Source: Candidatus Micrarchaeota archaeon (GTDB lineage Archaea > Micrarchaeota > Micrarchaeia > Anstonellales > J096). From it: 64,000 nt of DNA. The translations under genes and the position numbers were made by a program. The stretch covers positions 16,500-80,499 of the forward strand of contig JALWQW010000019.1 in NCBI GenBank assembly GCA_026982895.1, given 5' to 3'. The notes beneath the pieces were generated by a model. That model did no database searches. It saw only the letters and a list, made by a program, of their open reading frames with translations, and was not told where the DNA came from. Below, one piece after another: positions 30,856-40,675 of this stretch (positions are counted from its first letter, which is position 1; each line of letters begins with the position of its first letter).

Positions 30856-30932
30856 TTCTTAAGATAACGACAAATGCCTTGAAGGAGTGGGCTTTATATA
30901 TGTTTTTGTCTAATTGATAAACGGTGTTTATT

Positions 30933-32282
30933 ATGGCAGATGAGGAGAAGGAAAGAGCAAATGTTAACGAACCTGCTACACAATCTGAGCAGCCACCAAA
31001 ATCAGAGGAGCAACCCTCAGGTTCAAATAATCCTTCACAGCAGTCTGAGCCTCAAAGCTCGGATACGCAACCAACAGCCCAGCAAACACAATCTATACAG
31101 CCAACAGCGCAATCAGCTCCACCTGCGCAACAGGTGCAACACCCCTCTCTACCAGCTCAAACGACGACTTCTACACCACAACCCTCTTCATCCCAACCTA
31201 AACAAGAATCCCAACCATCTCAGGATGAGACAGACATTATAAGCGACGATGAAGAGCTTATGAAATTCATAGAAGAGAGCGAGCCAAAAATATTCGTCGT
31301 AGGAGCTGGCGGTAGCGGCTGCAACACCTTAAACAGGTTATTCGAACTTAAAGTTGAGGGTGTAACGACAGTTGCTGCTAATACAGATGCTCGACATTTG
31401 CTTCACATAAAGGCCAATAGAAAGTTATTGCTTGGCAGGAAACTTACTCATGGAAGAGGTTGCGGTTCTAATCCCTCTTGTGGTGAGAAAGCAGCTGAGG
31501 AAGCTCTCGAAGATATAAAGAAAGTTCTAGAGCCTTCCAATTTAACATTTGTAACATGCGGTTTAGGTGGAGGCACTGGAACAGGTTCAGCGCCTGTGAT
31601 AGCAAAAATATCTAAAAGAGATTTGGGTGCACTGACCGTTGCCGTCGTTACATTGCCGTTCACATCAGAAGGCAGGGTAAGGTATGAGAATGCTATGGAA
31701 GGCTTGGATAAGCTAAGGAGGAATGTTGATACATTAATTGTCATAAAGAATGATAAACTCCTGTCTATAGCGCCTGATTTACCCCTTAATACGGCCTTCA
31801 AGATAAGTGATGAGGTTTTGGCTGGAAGTGTTAAGAGTATAACGGAGCTTGCTACAAAGAGCGGCCTCGTTAATGTGGATTTCGCTGATTTGACGACTGT
31901 GCTTAAAGATGCTGGCTATGCTGTTATTGGTATAGGCGAAGCGACAGTTGATGTGCCCAGGGAAGATAGGGCTAGAATAGCTATAGAAACTGCCTTGCAG
32001 AGCCCTCTCTTGAATGCCAACATATCGAATGCCAAGAGGGCTTTGATTAATATCGTCGGCGGAGAAGATTTATCTATAAAAGAGGTGGAATACATCGTTG
32101 CAGAGACTGCTAAAAAGATTTCTCCCGATGCACACATCATATTTGGCGCTCGCATCGAACCCTCTTTAAAGAAGAGTGCTATAAAGGTTCTCGTCGTGCT
32201 CGCTGGCGTTAAGTTTGAAGACTTCGAGGAGGATGGCGGCGAAGTTGATCTTTCCGATTTGGAAATCGATGTTGTAGGATAA
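30933..32282 (+). CDS. ftsZ: Cell division protein FtsZ (FtsZ1-type context) with a long Q/P/S/T-rich N-terminal extension
   Basis: GAGGSGCN, ANTDA, GLGGGTGTG, NVDFAD; followed by secE-spt5. Confidence 0.97.
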   Translation: MADEEKERANVNEPATQSEQPPKSEEQPSGSNNPSQQSEPQSSDTQPTAQQTQSIQPTAQSAPPAQQVQHPSLPAQTTTSTPQPSSSQPKQESQPSQDETDIISDDEELMKFIEESEPKIFVVGAGGSGCNTLNRLFELKVEGVTTVAANTDARHLLHIKANRKLLLGRKLTHGRGCGSNPSCGEKAAEEALEDIKKVLEPSNLTFVTCGLGGGTGTGSAPVIAKISKRDLGALTVAVVTLPFTSEGRVRYENAMEGLDKLRRNVDTLIVIKNDKLLSIAPDLPLNTAFKISDEVLAGSVKSITELATKSGLVNVDFADLTTVLKDAGYAVIGIGEATVDVPREDRARIAIETALQSPLLNANISNAKRALINIVGGEDLSIKEVEYIVAETAKKISPDAHIIFGARIEPSLKKSAIKVLVVLAGVKFEDFEEDGGEVDLSDLEIDVVG

Positions 32283-34922: not shown

Positions 34923-35006
34923 TTCTCTTTAGCTCAAATATTTTTTGTGTGTTAAAGTCTATATTTAAGAGAATGTTTAAAAATACTTTCATACACATAG
35001 ATAACC

Positions 35007-38000
35007 ATGCCAAAAAACCTTTTAAGAGCCTTTAAACAAGGCTCGCAGAATACAGAGAGCAAGACTATAATCCAAACCCAGCCCAAAGTCGATGCTAATC
35101 TTAAAGACAATAATAAGAAACGCAGAAATAATTTCTTCAAGAAGCTCTTACTCATTCCAGTAATTCCAGCACTCTTAAATTTTATGGTGCCTTCGTATAC
35201 TCTAGCGAAGACGAACGATATCGATAACCAGTATGTCGCTGCTAGAGACGAAGCCAAAAAGACGGTTGGAAATGTTGAAAGATTTTTAGACGATGCTTAT
35301 ACATATATACACGACGCTAAACGAAATAGCAGGGATTATGTCCTTTCTGCCGCGCGCTTGAAGGCAATACTGTCTAGAATTAGGCGCATCGTTGATAAAT
35401 TAAATCCACGAGATGGCTTGCGCAATAAATACAATAAAGTTAGGGATGAGTACGAAGAGCTCTATGAGCGTGCAGCAGCCATAGATGAGGCTTTTCGTCA
35501 CTATGAGGAAGCTTTAAAGGGAAAACCACCTACGAAGGCTAGCCTATTGGAAATGGATAAAGCCTTGAAGGATTTGGAGCGTCTTTTATCTGTGAAGGGA
35601 GGAAAGAAGCGTGTCATAACTAAGAAGGTTCTCGTCGGCAAAAAGAGAGTTTATAAGAACGTCCATTCGCAAAAGATAAATCTTAAAGAGGAGCTGAATA
35701 AAATAAACATCCCTTTCTTCTACAAAACATATATTCCCTCTGTTATTAAAGCTATAAAATCGAGGAAACCCCTCTCCGCTATAAAAGGAACATATGGCAT
35801 GATTTTCGGCAACGCCAACCTCGAAAGGATATACACTGCTTATTGGTCAAGTGGAAGGAAAGAAGTGATTGAAGTTCCCATCTATAAGGAAGTGAAGGAA
35901 GTTGTTTATGAGGGTGGAAATAGAGAGATTATTGCGAGAATGCTCTACCCTTACTTGCCTGCTTATTATGTCGATAAGTGGAAATCTGCCAGCATGTCGA
36001 CCAGTGATTTAATGAACTTCTTAAGGGGTTTTGATTCAAGGGCCTCTACCCTTCTAGATACTCTAACTGTCGATGATGATGGCATCTTTGATTTATACAA
36101 TGTGAAACACACGACGATGCCTCAATTGGGCACAGCTGAAAAAGTTTTCTTGCTTAAATCTATCGACCCAGAGCTTCTCAATAATTTAGAAAAAGCCAAG
36201 CTCATAGCATTTTCAACTGCTTTAAGAGGGCCTTTGGCTATTCGTTTAGCCGCTATTGAATATCTTTGGCCTGCTTTGGATAAACAGTATAATGACCCGT
36301 ATCTCGTAAATAGGGCTGCTGAGATTGTTATTGGTTATGCTAATTCTATAGCTTCTCAAAATGCCCCTCATCTAGCCACGCTTTACATAGAGGATGTATC
36401 TAAAAAAATAGGTGCTATGCGCCCGAACATAAGGGATGTGCGCGCTTCTGTAATAGATGAAGATATGCATGTCTATACTCCAGCTCCATGGGAAAAGCCT
36501 TTTGAGCGTTTTATGTATGGTTACAATCCTTCTATATATGCTAATGCTCAATTTAGAAAGTCCATATTGGCTAATAATATTGCATTGGCACCCTCTGCTC
36601 TATTGGGCGCGTCGGCTGAAAATCCTTTACAGCCCATATTCAAAAGCGATGCGCAGATAAGGCAAGAAATAGGAAGGCCTCTTTTAAGAGCAGGTGCTTC
36701 ACCTTCTTCGCCTACGACATACCTTCCGCGCACATATCTCAACGAGAGCGCCTTAAAGCCAGCAAGGGCTTATTATCCTAGAGGAGGGCTTGTGTTGTTT
36801 TCGAATGTAGATGGCGCGTTTTACGGTGAATGGAAGGGTCATGAAGGTTCTGACGGAAAGCGTTATTCGAGGACGGTCAGCGGCAACTTCCACTATGAAG
36901 AGGACCAAAAGAGAGGAATAAATATCTCTGCCGATAGTTCTGTTTCAGATGGCTACAATGCTACGCGATTATCTGAAGATTTCTACAACCGCGGCGATAC
37001 TTGGCAGATTGGCGGAGCAGGCAATACGGAGAGGACTTCTCAGAGAGATATTGATGAGTATGGTCTTTATTATGAGAGTCCCTTTGTGGATACAAGCGCT
37101 TCATATAATAAATACAAGATGCGCTCCGCTTTTTCTAATCCACAACCTCCTCAATTGAGGGAGGGTGTCCATTTCAATGCCAATTCAGAACATTTCGGGC
37201 TTGATGCTGATAAGTATAGGAGCACATTCTCCGATGATAAAAGTAAATATGGCAGCGGCGATAATTTAGCAGCTATTAAAACGGGTAAAGTTGGAGGTTC
37301 TGCCGACATAGTCGTTTTAGGTGAAGCTGGTGCTTCTAAGGTAGAAAGTATAGAGGAAAATTATCCTTCATCCCAAACAACCTCTAATGAAGGTATGGGT
37401 TTTGCTGATGCTCAATACAAAGTTGGAGGCGGGCTTTATTATAAGGGATACAATCAGCAAGGTGGTGGAGCTGATTATTCTGGAAGATATTATGCTGATA
37501 TCGTCGCTAGAAAAAGCTCAAACGCTAGTAGGGTGGATGCCACATTCTCCGATAGACAGAGCTTTGGAGCCAAGGCTTATCTTGAAGGGAAGGATGGTGG
37601 TATTTCAGCAGTTGGCAAGAGAAGTGATTGGAAAGCAGGCATTAATTATGAACACAAAGGCTCTGAAAATAATGGAGAGTTTCATGTAGCTCATAAGCCA
37701 TGGTTTGGTGGTGTGAGCAGTGATTTTAAGAAGGGCTTTGATGCTTATTTAGGCGGCGAAGGAAAGATAAACGGTGTGGCGGCATATGGGCAAGATGCTG
37801 ATAGTAAGGGAGCATATCTCTATCTCGGCGAACCTGCTTTGAAATATACAGGAGCTTATGAGCAGGCAGGAGGCTGGGCAACCTTCAACGGTTTAGCCGC
37901 TGATAGAGGAGAGCTTTTAACTCTCTATGGATGGGATGAAGGGCATAGTATGGATGTTTCTGGCAGAGTTGTTTTAGGCAAAGACATTAACCTAGAAGTG

Positions 38001-38684
38001 GGCGGCAATTACTTTTTACCTCTTCATAAGAGGCCCAATCAAGCTCTTTGGCTTATATTGTATCCAAGCGAGATGGACTGGTATGTATTTGCATCGTACA
38101 ATAGAGCCTATACTAACATACAACCTTTCCTTTACATAAACGGTTCCAAGCCATCATCCATGGATTTCTTTGGCATTTTAGCAGGCATAGATGCTAATGC
38201 AGTTCTTGTTCAGAATGTTGAGCTGGCAGCAGGCCTTAATTACAATAAATACTCGCGCAGAGATTACGGTAAAGATGCTATTTTAAATACAGGAAACAAT
38301 TTCATAAGCGGTCAGGCTCTATTAACAGCAGATTATAATGGGCAAAGAGGCGCTGCTTTGAGATTTGAATGGGGTAAGGAAAGTAGAAACTATTCAAGAA
38401 TAACCCTTCCAAAGGCAGATGTTCTAATAATGAGCGGTTCAAGGCTAAGCCTTTTAGTTCAAGGCGCTTATACCTATAATCCAAATGGCAGGGCTTATGG
38501 AGGAGCTATTGGCTTTAATTGGGCTGGCTACAAGGAAAAAGCTGATTTCAATGGGTATTGGAGCTTAGAAAGTACAGCAGGAATCATTGTGCCTATGCCC
38601 AGGACTTATGATTACATTGTTAGTATTAGAGCCACTGTAAGCATAGACGCTCTTGGGAGCTTGGTGGATAGAATAATAAAATAA
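35007..38684 (+). CDS. Large secreted protein, 1225 aa: helical N-half and G/Y/aromatic-rich beta-strand C-half
   Basis: Signal-like KKLLLIPVIPALLNFMVPSYTLA|K. From about 36780 many short amphipathic strands (AGINYEHK, GFDAYLGG, VELAAGLNYN, GAALRFEWG, LLVQGAYTYN, GGAIGFNW). Confidence 0.7.
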   Translation: MPKNLLRAFKQGSQNTESKTIIQTQPKVDANLKDNNKKRRNNFFKKLLLIPVIPALLNFMVPSYTLAKTNDIDNQYVAARDEAKKTVGNVERFLDDAYTYIHDAKRNSRDYVLSAARLKAILSRIRRIVDKLNPRDGLRNKYNKVRDEYEELYERAAAIDEAFRHYEEALKGKPPTKASLLEMDKALKDLERLLSVKGGKKRVITKKVLVGKKRVYKNVHSQKINLKEELNKINIPFFYKTYIPSVIKAIKSRKPLSAIKGTYGMIFGNANLERIYTAYWSSGRKEVIEVPIYKEVKEVVYEGGNREIIARMLYPYLPAYYVDKWKSASMSTSDLMNFLRGFDSRASTLLDTLTVDDDGIFDLYNVKHTTMPQLGTAEKVFLLKSIDPELLNNLEKAKLIAFSTALRGPLAIRLAAIEYLWPALDKQYNDPYLVNRAAEIVIGYANSIASQNAPHLATLYIEDVSKKIGAMRPNIRDVRASVIDEDMHVYTPAPWEKPFERFMYGYNPSIYANAQFRKSILANNIALAPSALLGASAENPLQPIFKSDAQIRQEIGRPLLRAGASPSSPTTYLPRTYLNESALKPARAYYPRGGLVLFSNVDGAFYGEWKGHEGSDGKRYSRTVSGNFHYEEDQKRGINISADSSVSDGYNATRLSEDFYNRGDTWQIGGAGNTERTSQRDIDEYGLYYESPFVDTSASYNKYKMRSAFSNPQPPQLREGVHFNANSEHFGLDADKYRSTFSDDKSKYGSGDNLAAIKTGKVGGSADIVVLGEAGASKVESIEENYPSSQTTSNEGMGFADAQYKVGGGLYYKGYNQQGGGADYSGRYYADIVARKSSNASRVDATFSDRQSFGAKAYLEGKDGGISAVGKRSDWKAGINYEHKGSENNGEFHVAHKPWFGGVSSDFKKGFDAYLGGEGKINGVAAYGQDADSKGAYLYLGEPALKYTGAYEQAGGWATFNGLAADRGELLTLYGWDEGHSMDVSGRVVLGKDINLEVGGNYFLPLHKRPNQALWLILYPSEMDWYVFASYNRAYTNIQPFLYINGSKPSSMDFFGILAGIDANAVLVQNVELAAGLNYNKYSRRDYGKDAILNTGNNFISGQALLTADYNGQRGAALRFEWGKESRNYSRITLPKADVLIMSGSRLSLLVQGAYTYNPNGRAYGGAIGFNWAGYKEKADFNGYWSLESTAGIIVPMPRTYDYIVSIRATVSIDALGSLVDRIIK

Positions 38685-38701: not shown

Positions 38702-40675
38702 TCATTTTCTAGGAGCTAGGATTATTTGTCCTGGATAGATTGTCCTACCACCTGATAAAACAACGCTGCGATTCCCATATAGTCTTTTGATTCTTGAGAT
38801 AGTATAGCCCCTCCTTACTATACCAACCTTTTTGTAGTGCTCTGGCAGAGGTATGATTATTTTCTCTCTGACGTATATTCTTCTGCTGTTGTAGTTAGGA
38901 TTATAGGCTTTGATGAGTTCCCTTGCTTCTCTTCTACTTATCTTGTGAAGCTTTGCTACAAGCATTTCTAATCCATACGGTGTGTCGCCTCTTCTCACGC
39001 GGTAGATAATAGCTTTTTTGCTCTCCTTTATTGCCTTTACCAATTTCTTCTCCTCTTTTTTGATTTTTCTCTCTACTCTTCTTTCCTTTTTTTCTGTCTT
39101 TTCCCTCGTTTTTTCACTGGTTGCTTCTACGATTCCTATGCTTGTTAACACCGCCTTCCCACCCTCAGTTATAGCATCCATGAAGCTCTTAGCCATGTTT
39201 AAGAAGTTGCTCTTTATGTTTGCCTCCATTCGAGCAATGATTTTCTCCTTACTTTCTTTGTCTATGCTTATTATCTCGCCGTTTAAAGCTTCTAGAAGCG
39301 CATCCATTTTTTCGTCGAAAACTTTTGGGTCTTTGGTTGTTATCAATGTGTAGTAATCTTTTAATTTGTCCATAGCTTCTTTTGTCTTTGGTAGAAGGAG
39401 CACTGTTTTGCCTTTTGGAGTGTAGTATCTCTGCTTATTCTCGATACTGTCGTCGAAGTTGTTCATTAGATTGTAGAGTATATCTACATCTTCCTTTTCA
39501 TAATCGTCACCGAGAGCTTTCCTAAGATGTTCCTCTAAGACAGCCTTTAGATTTCTCTCGCTGCGAATGTACTCAATCTTCACTTCGTCTGGGTTTAGCA
39601 GATTGCTGGCTAAGAAATGAACATCTGATACATTGATGGGTATCCCTCCCCTTGTTTTTACTTTTAAATTAGGATCGTTTAGTACAGCGAGTATGGCAAC
39701 AAATCTACCAGGATATGAACCTGCTTCTTTAAGAGTCCTCTTAGTTATATGGTATTTTCTTCTGAAGACTCTACTTCTTATTCCCTTGTACCATTCTCTC
39801 CAGTCTTTTACCCTCCTTATTCTCCCCTCACCAGCGTTGTAGGCTACTGTAGCTAGGAGAATGTCTTTGTTTTTTCTCTGTCCCTTTAAGATTCTCCCAA
39901 AGTGTCTTCCAGAGATGTAAGCGGAGTTGAAGGGTATGTACATAGAGCTGATGTCATAAAAATATTTGATGTTATCTCTTTTTACTTTGCTTAGCACATT
40001 TTTGTAGGTACCATGTAAAAACTGGTAGAGCCCCTTTGCATTTGCATTAGATCCTGCTAGAACTTCAACAGCACCGTTGGCAGAGGGTATGCTCTCTGGA
40101 AAAAAGATATAAGCCAAATCGTCGGAGGATATAGTAACTATTCTTCCCCCTGGCATTTTTACTGATGTGTTTATAGATAAATAGGACTCGCCTAGTACTT
40201 CTTTGAGCCCCTTTTCAAAAGCCGCGTGGTAGAGAGGCAGTGCACCCATTACCCTTTCTATGGATCTGATGTAGGCTTTCTTCATTCCTACGCCATGTAC
40301 TACATAGAGGTCTCTTTTTGCTAAATGGATAAGCTCCTTATCGGGTTCCATGTTTGTAGTTTTTAGGAATTTTACTAGCCACCTTTTCTCCTTTTCTGAT
40401 AAGTCCTCATTTTCAATTGCTGGGCTTAGGGCGTGCTGATTTTTCTCACCGGGCTTTTTTACTATTTTCACTTTCTTTTCAGATTCCCTTACCTTCGTTG
40501 CAGAATGAATACCTGTGCCTATGATACTTATTGTAGCGAGGCCAATACCCATATCCTTCATATAATTTAGCATTTCTCTGCGTGTGAGTTTCCTTTCAAG
40601 GAGAGGCGTTTCATCTATTCGCTTATTTTCCTTTCTTTGAGTTGTGCTGCTATCTTGTTGGTATCTTTCCTCCAT
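38702..40675 (-). CDS. Twin-arginine-signal lytic transglycosylase (SLT/GH23-like) with C-terminal LysM domains
   Basis: TRREML plus hydrophobic helix; SLT motifs PES (catalytic Glu at 40094-40096), AKGLYQF and AYNAGEG; LysM YRVRRGDT...YNPN...IYVREKIIIP and VRRGYTIS...IYPGQIILAP. Confidence 0.85.
   Translation of the reverse strand: MEERYQQDSSTTQRKENKRIDETPLLERKLTRREMLNYMKDMGIGLATISIIGTGIHSATKVRESEKKVKIVKKPGEKNQHALSPAIENEDLSEKEKRWLVKFLKTTNMEPDKELIHLAKRDLYVVHGVGMKKAYIRSIERVMGALPLYHAAFEKGLKEVLGESYLSINTSVKMPGGRIVTISSDDLAYIFFPESIPSANGAVEVLAGSNANAKGLYQFLHGTYKNVLSKVKRDNIKYFYDISSMYIPFNSAYISGRHFGRILKGQRKNKDILLATVAYNAGEGRIRRVKDWREWYKGIRSRVFRRKYHITKRTLKEAGSYPGRFVAILAVLNDPNLKVKTRGGIPINVSDVHFLASNLLNPDEVKIEYIRSERNLKAVLEEHLRKALGDDYEKEDVDILYNLMNNFDDSIENKQRYYTPKGKTVLLLPKTKEAMDKLKDYYTLITTKDPKVFDEKMDALLEALNGEIISIDKESKEKIIARMEANIKSNFLNMAKSFMDAITEGGKAVLTSIGIVEATSEKTREKTEKKERRVERKIKKEEKKLVKAIKESKKAIIYRVRRGDTPYGLEMLVAKLHKISRREARELIKAYNPNYNSRRIYVREKIIIPLPEHYKKVGIVRRGYTISRIKRLYGNRSVVLSGGRTIYPGQIILAPRK

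What the first reader, a model, noticed from the sequence alone, without database searches (positions are those of the whole stretch)
35007..38684. 1225-aa secreted protein with an outer-membrane-beta-barrel-like C-terminal half
Seen: a signal-peptide-like segment, a ~500-aa helical region and a Pro-rich linker. These are followed by ~630 aa (36780-38684) of short Gly/Tyr/Phe/Trp-rich strands with alternating polarity and tight D/N/G turns. Known: this pattern typifies transmembrane beta-barrels of diderm bacteria, which archaea are not known to assemble via BamA; ARMAN (Micrarchaeota) cells were imaged with two membrane-like layers. Inference: an archaeal outer-layer pore, or a pore or adhesin inserted into a host envelope. 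The C-terminus lacks the aromatic beta-signal, so a soluble beta-solenoid or sheet remains possible.
Basis: partly seen in the sequence, partly recalled or inferred. Interest (0 to 1): 0.7.

Follow-up and report, generated by a model that had tools for sequence, protein, structure and literature searches.

The report
Orphan secreted helix-plus-beta surface protein
A tiny hydrothermal-vent archaeon (Micrarchaeota) has a real gene for a large exported protein with a helical front half and a beta-strand-rich back half. Only one other genome is known to carry a relative, and nothing I could compute shows that the back half is a membrane pore rather than an ordinary surface domain.

Summary
The ORF at 35007-38684 is real and intact, and an independent assembly of the source run reproduces it with no differences. 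The described layout is present: a basic 42-residue N-tail, a 21-residue hydrophobic segment with a conserved A-x-A|KT site, about 490 helical residues, a Pro/Tyr hinge and about 630 Gly/Tyr/Ser/Asp-rich beta-type residues.

It is an orphan. Among 1.84 billion representative proteins, 5.8 billion clusters, 400 genomes of the phylum and JGI metagenomes, the only relative is a collinear protein of 27-29% local identity. That relative lies in one congeneric MAG, at a different locus.

The transmembrane-barrel reading could not be supported:
- There is no match to any Pfam, NCBIfam, PDB or E. coli barrel profile.
- There is no C-terminal beta-signal and no Omp85/BamA in the genome.
- The genome has its own canonical S-layer protein, and the two-membrane picture of Micrarchaeota has been challenged in print.
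- AlphaFold failed (pLDDT 25 for the C-half, 43 for the N-half).

In controlled tests, the porin-like composition and alternating strands were equally typical of this genome's soluble lectin and beta-helix surface giants. The sequence pattern is therefore real but not diagnostic. The best reading is a fast-evolving stalk-plus-head surface or host-contact protein. A barrel remains possible but untested.

The parts
34961..34986 (+). A/T-rich TATA-like boxes (tatattta, tttaaaaata) 21-46 nt upstream of the ATG; candidate archaeal promoter for a short-leader or leaderless mRNA
   Evidence: Read directly from the sequence. This is inference and was not tested.
35007..35132 (+). Residues 1-42: polar, basic N-terminal tail ending KKRRNNFFKK. 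It is probably cytoplasmic (positive-inside rule).
   Evidence: no alternative in-frame start. The homolog has a longer tail of the same kind.
35133..35207 (+). Residues 43-67: the only hydrophobic segment (LLLIPVIPALLNFMV), followed by PSYTLA|KT. It is either a Sec signal peptide with an unusually long n-region or an uncleaved N-in signal-anchor.
   Evidence: Kyte-Doolittle 1.79. A-x-A followed by KT is conserved in P0003.
35208..36686 (+). Residues 68-560: basic (pI 9.5) alpha-helical half. Long helices at about 69-170 look like a stalk. A Lys-rich insertion of about 105 aa (about 197-305) is absent from the homolog. The best-conserved core is residues 306-560, with motifs IARML and QNAPHLA.
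   Evidence: The only family match is a sub-threshold coiled-coil-type hit (Crescentin rod, E 0.023). Foldseek gave nothing.
36687..36806 (+). Residues 561-600: Pro/Tyr/Ser-rich hinge with the conserved motif AL.P...YYP.GG(L/I)V
36807..38681 (+). Residues 601-1225: acidic (pI 5.7) Gly/Tyr/Ser/Asp/Asn-rich, Cys-free beta-type half. Residues 601-800 are very polar. Residues 800-1225 carry most of the long amphipathic strand-like segments.
   Evidence: No internal repeats. No family match.
38154..38228 (+). Residues 1050-1074: conserved segment that looks like an amphipathic alpha-helix inside the beta-rich half (P0003: ALDELFKPLASLDTQRELIRNLE)
   Evidence: The secondary structure comes from a low-confidence model, so this is inference.
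38634..38684 (+). Residues 1210-1225 plus the stop codon: conserved SID.LG.L tail, helix-like, ending in Lys. There is no aromatic beta-signal.

Best explanation
This is a native gene for a lineage-specific, fast-evolving envelope protein of about 137 kDa. It occurs in two hydrothermal-vent species of one Micrarchaeota genus.

Proposed mechanism. The protein goes through the Sec system via its single N-terminal hydrophobic segment. It either stays tethered by that segment (N-tail in the cytoplasm) or is released at the conserved A-x-A|KT site. The basic helical half, which starts with long stalk-like helices, acts as a spacer or scaffold at or through the S-layer. A Pro/Tyr hinge connects it to an acidic, Gly/Tyr-rich beta domain that is the exposed 'head'. 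I propose the head is a soluble extracellular beta structure that contacts a partner cell or surface (an adhesin or host-contact role), not a barrel embedded in a lipid layer.

Shown: the gene is real, the segment layout is present, the family is restricted to two genomes, divergence is rapid, and there are no detectable relatives.

Inferred: export, topology, the stalk-plus-head arrangement and the contact function.
For: - Intact ORF, identical in an independent assembly.
- Archaeal neighbours: FtsZ, Spt5, malic enzyme, IleRS. GC content matches the flanks.
- One collinear homolog at 27-29% local identity (26% over the whole alignment), covering both halves.
- The homolog's neighbouring genes have orthologs in this genome at 37-85% identity, so this protein evolves unusually fast.
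- The locus is not syntenic. The slot after the malic enzyme gene differs in congeners.
- Single hydrophobic segment with a conserved A-x-A|KT site.
- The N-half is helical, the C-half is beta-type, and the two have opposite charge.
- The same genome makes several giant secreted proteins with ConA-like lectin, beta-helix and CarboxypepD_reg domains. Their composition and alternating-strand statistics equal or exceed those of this C-half.
- Neither an outer-membrane insertase nor a beta-signal is present.
- The main S-layer protein is a different gene.
Against: - No fold was obtained, so 'soluble head' is no better demonstrated than 'barrel'.
- The last ~330 residues reach the top of the genome's distribution for long amphipathic strands: 3.3 per 100 aa, against an E. 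coli barrel median of 2.2.
- No repeats were found, whereas beta-solenoids and propellers often show some.
- Earlier unchecked scan notes report other Micrarchaeota orphans with a helical rod plus a tail that was predicted to be porin-like.
- No adhesin or lectin domain is recognisable, and no partner is known.
Confidence: 0.5

Rival explanations
1. The C-terminal ~400-630 residues fold into a large porin-like beta-barrel that sits in a lipid layer. That layer could be an unrecognised outer layer of the archaeon, or the membrane of a host or prey cell into which the protein is delivered. The helical half would act as a periplasm-like tether or rod, as in SlpA/OmpM-type tether porins or TPR-barrel exporters.
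For: - Composition log-odds of 0.088 lies inside the E. coli barrel range of 0.024-0.154.
- Density of long alternating strands is 2.7 per 100 aa overall and 3.3 in the last 330 aa, against 1.4-4.1 for barrels.
- Hydrophobic-face conservation between the two homologs equals that of TonB-dependent-transporter barrel pairs.
- The C-half is Cys-free, Gly-rich and repeat-free.
- The helix-then-beta order mirrors NfrA/PgaA/BcsC and SlpA.
- Earlier scan notes (unchecked leads) describe similar helical-rod-plus-porin-like-tail orphans in Micrarchaeota.
- The same genome holds another orphan (P0004) with a barrel-like tail ending in Phe.
Against: - Every one of these measures scores soluble lectin and beta-helix giants of the same genome equally high. 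AUC is 0.48-0.64, and conservation statistics are identical.
- There is no profile similarity to any barrel family (hhalign probabilities below 1%).
- The C-terminus is a helix-like tail ending in Lys.
- Residues 610-760 are too polar for membrane strands.
- There is no Omp85.
- An S-layer protein is present, and an S-layer rather than a second membrane was demonstrated in a cultivated Micrarchaeon.
- AlphaFold gave no barrel.
Confidence: 0.15
2. It is a structural accessory of the cell envelope. It would be a membrane-anchored stalk protein that positions or anchors the S-layer (functionally like SlaB of Sulfolobales, but anchored at the N-terminus), rather than a host-contact protein.
For: - N-terminal hydrophobic anchor with a long cytoplasmic-type tail.
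- Stalk-like long helices.
- It is Cys-free and has about 137 kDa, which fits part of the generic S-layer-protein criteria quoted; its acidic pI holds only for the C-half, since the whole protein is basic (pI 9.2).
- The published Micrarchaeum S-layer protein lacks an obvious anchor, and a second stalk protein was proposed.
Against: - It is absent from two of four congeneric genomes and from 400 genomes of the phylum, while the S-layer protein itself is conserved.
- A core envelope part would be expected to be conserved and syntenic.
- It has no S_layer_N or S_layer_C domain.
Confidence: 0.2
3. It is a secreted effector or toxin-like protein that acts together with the neighbouring MltD-like SLT-LysM wall hydrolase as an 'envelope-breaching module' against bacterial cells.
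For: The SLT domain protein lies immediately downstream on the opposite strand (38702-40675). Both proteins appear to be exported.
Against: - The two genes are convergent, so they are not one transcript.
- The SLT-LysM protein has no homolog in any of the three congeneric genomes, including the one that carries the P0001 homolog.
- The homolog sits in an unrelated neighbourhood.
- No toxin or effector domain was detected.
Confidence: 0.07

Closest known systems
Large lineage-specific secreted surface proteins of DPANN archaea (the giant lectin, beta-helix and Ig-like proteins in this same genome; the cell-surface and host-contact proteins discussed for cultivated DPANN)
   Same: Exported, large, Gly/Tyr/Ser/Asn/Asp-rich beta regions, Cys-poor, very fast-evolving, patchy distribution.
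   Different: No recognisable lectin, beta-helix or Ig domain. It has a 490-aa helical half and a long basic N-tail before the hydrophobic segment. Only two members are known.
SlpA (Deinococcus/Thermus) and OmpM-type tether porins; TPR-plus-barrel exporters (NfrA, PgaA, BcsC)
   Same: The order of parts is helical or coiled-coil N-half, then a large beta-rich C-half. The total size is similar at about 1000-1200 aa. The resemblance to SlpA/OmpM is from general knowledge. NfrA was used here as a control.
   Different: No SLH or TPR domain. hhalign to NfrA gives 0.1% probability. There is no terminal aromatic residue and no Omp85 in the genome. The organism has an S-layer gene, and no outer membrane is known.
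Classical bacterial outer-membrane beta-barrels (porins, TonB-dependent transporters, LptD, ushers, autotransporter beta-domains)
   Same: Composition and density of long alternating strands fall within their range.
   Different: No sequence or profile similarity. No beta-signal. Helix-like segments occur inside and at the end. The shared statistics are also shared by soluble beta proteins.
Micrarchaeota S-layer protein SLP_Mh (S_layer_N/S_layer_C; Gfrerer et al. 2021, bioRxiv 10.1101/2021.04.28.441871)
   Same: A surface protein of roughly 100 kDa or more with an N-terminal signal peptide or TM ambiguity and almost no sulfur amino acids.
   Different: It is a different gene. This genome's ortholog is on contig C16 (974-aa open frame, 48% identical to a congener's S_layer_N protein, with a Pfam S_layer_C hit). 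P0001 has neither domain.

Membership tests
Bacterial-type transmembrane outer-membrane beta-barrel (OMBB) | Significant match to a known OMBB sequence family or solved barrel | tested here: not met
   Pfam, NCBIfam and PDB gave no hit even at E<=10. hhalign against E. coli porin, TBDT, LptD, BamA, usher, FadL, OmpT, OmpA, Ag43-beta and NfrA profiles all gave below 1% probability.
Bacterial-type transmembrane outer-membrane beta-barrel (OMBB) | Closed barrel with a lipid-facing hydrophobic belt and aromatic girdles | tested here: inconclusive
   The AlphaFold2 model of the C-half has mean pLDDT 25.1 and pTM 0.18, which is unusable. Sequence proxies do not separate barrels from soluble beta proteins (AUC 0.48-0.64).
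Bacterial-type transmembrane outer-membrane beta-barrel (OMBB) | C-terminal beta-signal ending in an aromatic residue | tested here: not met
   P0001 ends ...ALGSLVDRIIK. The homolog ends ...ILFGRW, but its extra six residues are not aligned or conserved, and the tail looks helical.
Bacterial-type transmembrane outer-membrane beta-barrel (OMBB) | Omp85/BamA-type insertase in the same genome | tested here: not met
   PF01103 is absent from the genome at E<=0.1, while 7 diderm control genomes gave a match. The genome is 88% complete.
Bacterial-type transmembrane outer-membrane beta-barrel (OMBB) | N-terminal export signal | tested here: met
   Hydrophobic segment 43-61 with a conserved A-x-A|KT site. 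Cleavage itself was not tested, and the 42-aa n-region is atypical.
Bacterial-type transmembrane outer-membrane beta-barrel (OMBB) | An outer lipid membrane in the producing cell (or a demonstrated target membrane) | not testable with these tools
   The literature shows an S-layer over a single membrane in cultivated Ca. Micrarchaeum harzensis. This genome has an S-layer protein ortholog. The host is unknown.
SlpA/OmpM-type tether porins | N-terminal SLH domain plus coiled coil plus C-terminal barrel | tested here: not met
   No SLH domain. Long helices are present at low confidence. The barrel is not demonstrable.
TPR-plus-barrel polysaccharide exporters (NfrA/PgaA/BcsC) | TPR repeats in the N-half and a 16-18-strand barrel in the C-half | tested here: not met
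   No TPR hit in Pfam. hhalign to NfrA gives 0.1%. Foldseek of the N-half model lists TPR-type proteins only at E>1 and TM<0.2, which is meaningless.
Archaeal S-layer proteins (S_layer_N / S_layer_C) | S_layer_N or S_layer_C domain | tested here: not met
   No hit in P0001. The genome's true ortholog is elsewhere, on C16.

The most novel reading that the evidence does not exclude
P0001 and its single homolog are extremely diverged members of a Micrarchaeota-wide class of proteins with a helical rod plus a porin-like barrel. Their C-terminal domain inserts, without BamA, into a lipid bilayer, most plausibly that of the host or partner cell. That would make a channel or anchor at the symbiont-host contact site, and it would be a genuine transmembrane beta-barrel native to Archaea.
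Probability: 0.1. Interest if true: 0.85.

Novelty: new member of a known kind. Interest (0 to 1): 0.3.

Why it matters
A real membrane beta-barrel in an archaeon would overturn the textbook restriction of such proteins to diderm bacteria and organelles. It would also give a handle on how DPANN cells connect to their hosts.

This locus does not deliver that evidence. What it does show is useful for the whole scan. 'Porin-like' composition, tight Gly/Asp/Asn turns and alternating strands, judged from sequence alone, do not distinguish membrane barrels from the soluble beta-rich surface proteins that DPANN genomes carry in abundance. Such calls therefore need a confident fold or an experiment.

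The protein itself is one more very fast-evolving, genus-restricted surface protein, and a candidate host-interaction factor.

Tried and rejected
1. Homolog hunting. I ran the word-indexed search of 5.8 G clusters with P0001 and with P0003, and exhaustive phmmer against 1.84 G representatives. I also ran profile searches of 41, 61 and 401 Micrarchaeota genomes and scans of GTDB genome contigs, JGI metagenome contigs and IMG/VR. Only one relative turned up, and there is no paralog in the genome itself.

2. Family and structure libraries. Pfam, NCBIfam, PHROGs and PDB sequences, also at E<=10 and on sub-domains, gave nothing.

3. AlphaFold2 on both halves with the two-sequence alignments gave pLDDT 25.1 and 42.8. 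Foldseek of the N-half had a best E of 1.4 and TM below 0.2. The C-half model was too poor to search.

4. 'It replaces the S-layer protein'. A congener with an S_layer_N gene lacks P0001, and the two genomes with P0001 gave no S_layer_N Pfam hit. I rejected the idea because this genome has a 48%-identical ortholog of that S-layer protein, which carries an S_layer_C hit.

5. My own barrel discriminators, calibrated on 13 E. coli K-12 barrel domains against 115 other E. coli ORFs, the Ag43 passenger and this genome's surface giants. They covered composition log-odds, density of 7- to 13-residue alternating strands, and conservation of the hydrophobic face between homologs. None separated barrels from soluble beta-rich proteins, so none can decide the case. 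My first visual impression that the hydrophobic faces are not conserved in P0003 did not survive the control comparison.

6. Internal repeats: none by self-BLAST.

7. The link to the SLT-LysM neighbour was rejected. The genes are convergent and do not co-occur.

8. A link to another barrel-like orphan of the same genome (P0004) was not found. hhalign gave 0.09%, and P0004 itself has no relatives.
Full report
**What is there.** The window carries an uninterrupted ATG-initiated ORF at 35007-38684 (+) encoding 1225 residues. It is not an assembly artefact. Logan's independent contigs of the only public run that holds the sequence (a hydrothermal-vent metagenome) include a 12.2-kb contig. That contig covers the whole gene with zero differences at about 19x depth.

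The neighbours are ordinary archaeal genes: FtsZ, Spt5/NusG, malic enzyme and IleRS. GC content (0.41-0.43) matches the flanks. Earlier notes on this genome, and the title of the record holding the only homolog, place it in Micrarchaeota (DPANN).

**Anatomy.**
- Residues 1-42 are polar and basic, ending in KKRRNNFFKK.
- Residues 43-61 are the only strongly hydrophobic stretch in the protein (Kyte-Doolittle 1.79). They are followed by PSYTLA|KT, which aligns with TTAMA|KT in the homolog.
- No in-frame ATG, GTG or TTG lies between M1 and the hydrophobic segment, and TATA-like boxes lie 21-46 nt upstream of M1. The long N-tail therefore seems genuine. This gives either a Sec signal peptide with an unusually long n-region or an N-in signal-anchor.
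- Residues 68-560 are basic (pI 9.5). Their alpha-type amphipathicity exceeds the beta-type. They are modelled as 26 helices, the first three very long, at low confidence (mean pLDDT 42.8).
- Residues 561-600 are a Pro/Tyr/Ser-rich hinge with a conserved YYPxGG(L/I)V motif.
- Residues 601-1225 are acidic (pI 5.7), Cys-free, and rich in Gly (13%), Tyr (7.5%), Ser, Asp and Asn. Beta-type amphipathicity dominates.

Two refinements apply. Residues 610-760 are very polar, with a single strand-like amphipathic segment. A conserved helix-like segment (about 1050-1074) and a helix-like C-terminal tail (SID.LG.L...) interrupt and end the beta region.

**Distribution.** The family is essentially an orphan.
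- The word-indexed search of 5.8 billion clusters found only the query.
- An exhaustive phmmer pass over 1.84 billion representatives found one other protein, P0003 (1260 aa, E 1e-31, 29% identity). It is encoded in a Micrarchaeota MAG of the same genus (WAMF01000018.1).
- P0003 itself has no further relatives.
- Profile searches of 401 genomes of the phylum and 61 closer relatives found nothing else, and neither did scans of GTDB genomes, JGI metagenomes and IMG/VR.
- There is no paralog in the genome.

The two proteins are collinear over the N-terminal helices, the helical core and the C-terminal beta region. They are only 27-29% identical in those local alignments (26% over the whole alignment). 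The homolog's neighbouring genes, by contrast, have orthologs in this genome at 37-85% identity. The two copies lie in unrelated neighbourhoods, and the slot downstream of the malic enzyme gene holds other genes in two congeners. This is the signature of a rapidly evolving, dispensable surface or interaction protein.

**Testing the barrel reading.**

(a) *Recognition.* There was no hit to any Pfam, NCBIfam, PHROG or PDB sequence, even at E<=10 and with sub-domains or the two-sequence profile. hhalign of the C-half profile was run against profiles of E. coli porins, TonB-dependent transporters, LamB, LptD, BamA, an usher, FadL, OmpT, OmpA, the Ag43 beta-domain, CusC and NfrA. Probabilities were all below 1%.

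(b) *Fold.* AlphaFold2 with the only possible alignment (two sequences) gave mean pLDDT 25.1 and pTM 0.18 for the C-half, and 42.8 and 0.28 for the N-half. Foldseek of the N-half gave nothing (best E 1.4, TM below 0.2).

(c) *Cellular context.* The genome lacks Omp85/BamA, while seven diderm control genomes gave a match. The protein ends in Lys, not an aromatic beta-signal.

The premise of 'two membrane-like layers' has been revisited. Gfrerer et al. (bioRxiv 10.1101/2021.04.28.441871) showed a proteinaceous S-layer on cultivated Ca. Micrarchaeum harzensis, and found homologs of its S-layer protein in 38 of 49 Micrarchaeota genomes. This genome encodes such a protein on contig C16. It has a 974-aa open frame, is 48% identical to a congener's S_layer_N protein, and has a Pfam S_layer_C hit. 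P0001 is therefore not the main wall protein either.

(d) *Is the sequence pattern diagnostic?* I fetched 13 barrel domains of E. coli K-12: OmpF, OmpC, LamB, OmpA, OmpT, FadL, FhuA, FepA, BtuB, LptD, BamA, ElfC and Ag43-beta. I also fetched 115 other ORFs from the same regions.

- *Composition.* The log-odds score puts the P0001 C-half at 0.088 nats per residue, within the barrel range of 0.024-0.154. The soluble Ag43 passenger scores 0.07. Four giant secreted proteins of this very genome score 0.066-0.097 overall, and their best windows reach 0.147-0.161. The three I scanned contain ConA-like lectin, right-handed beta-helix and CarboxypepD_reg domains, so they are soluble folds.
- *Long alternating strands.* The density is 2.7 per 100 aa for the P0001 C-half and 2.05 for P0003. 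Barrels score 1.4-4.1, and the archaeon's soluble giants score 1.8-2.3. Across six parameter settings, the AUC for separating barrels from those giants was only 0.48-0.64.
- *Conservation of the hydrophobic face between homologs.* For P0001/P0003 the partner residue is polar at 15% of positions and strongly hydrophobic at 46%. This matches TonB-dependent-transporter barrel pairs at similar identity (12-15% and 39-62%). It also matches pairs of the soluble giants (12-13% and 42-54%).

The pattern is therefore real but does not discriminate. The one observation leaning towards a barrel is that the last ~330 residues reach the top of the genome's distribution (3.3 per 100 aa). There is also no internal repeat.

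**The neighbour.** The MltD-like SLT-LysM gene (38702-40675, - strand) is convergent with P0001. It has no homolog in any of the three congeneric genomes, including the one that has the P0001 homolog. The idea of an 'envelope-breaching module' is therefore not supported by co-occurrence.

**Leads from earlier scan notes.** These are unchecked AI notes. Several describe Micrarchaeota-only orphans of 1100-1450 aa with a helical rod and a tail that was predicted, in those cases, to be porin-like (e1-1108308, e1-2792209, e1-4580988). Others describe confidently predicted porin-like families in other DPANN, with a later check pricing the 'sits in a lipid layer' claim at 22/100 (e1-1100118).

The architecture of P0001 resembles these, which raised my odds for a barrel-type fold somewhat. 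I could not establish any sequence link, however. The same genome also holds another orphan (P0004, contig C25) with a barrel-like tail ending in Phe. It is unrelated to P0001 by hhalign and has no relatives of its own.

In print, archaeal porin-like proteins are so far little more than a passing remark. An example is a possible distant PopA relative in Altiarchaeales (PMC12228718).

**Verdict.** The interpretation can neither be supported nor excluded with the tools at hand, and its sequence-based argument is shown to be non-specific.

My best reading (about 0.5) is a fast-evolving, Sec-exported or N-terminally tethered stalk-plus-head surface protein involved in contact with a partner cell or surface. 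The rivals are:
- an S-layer-associated stalk or anchor (about 0.2);
- a lipid-embedded porin-like barrel (about 0.15 for the fold sitting in a membrane, and 0.1 for the full novel scenario);
- a partner of the SLT-LysM enzyme (about 0.07).

I rate it as a new member of a known kind, the lineage-specific DPANN surface proteins, and of modest interest unless a fold or an experiment shows a barrel.

Noticed in passing
outside the window: own genome contig C25:32326-34185 (-), locus L031:4327-6186 (-), protein P0004: A 620-aa orphan without a signal peptide. Its last ~290 residues look like amphipathic beta-hairpins and end ...NVGFTLHFTSNVF, with a C-terminal Phe. It has no Pfam hit and no relatives in 5.8 G clusters or 60 related genomes. 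It lies next to giant lectin and beta-helix secreted proteins.
   Followed up: partly
outside the window: own genome contig C28:29830-31809 (+), locus L032:3831-5810: A 660-aa protein with a textbook signal peptide (MKKFATVLLFLLLATTVLA), a Cys-rich N-part, a long Gly/Gln/Ser-rich linker and a helical C-part. It has no Pfam family.
   Followed up: partly
window 38702-40675 (-): The MltD-like SLT-LysM gene next door has no homolog in the three other genomes of the genus at E<=1e-5. It therefore looks like a recent, species-specific acquisition rather than a genus trait.
   Followed up: partly
window 35595-35921 (residues ~197-305 of P0001): A Lys-rich insertion of about 105 residues (VKGGKKRVITKKVLVGKKRVYKN...) in the helical half has no counterpart in the homolog. 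Conversely, the homolog has insertions of 57 and 27 residues in the beta half.
   Followed up: no
outside the window: own genome contig C16:45781-48702 (+), locus L025: This is the genome's canonical S-layer protein (974-aa open frame, Pfam S_layer_C). The Pfam S_layer_N model missed it in the six-frame search. It is 48% identical to the congener's S_layer_N protein. Family searches under-detect S-layer genes across this order (4 of 41 genomes).
   Followed up: yes
window 30924-32282 (+): The FtsZ ORF as listed (GTG start, 452 aa) has about 120 residues before the tubulin/FtsZ GTPase domain (domain at residues 122-283). This is either an over-long ORF call or an N-terminal extension.
   Followed up: no
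outside the window: own genome contigs C24 and C25 (loci L022-L024): A cluster of giant secreted proteins (2579, 1938, 1784 and 3891 aa). The three I scanned combine ConA-like lectin, right-handed beta-helix, CarboxypepD_reg and DUF4198 domains. They are probably the cell's main adhesin repertoire.
   Followed up: partly
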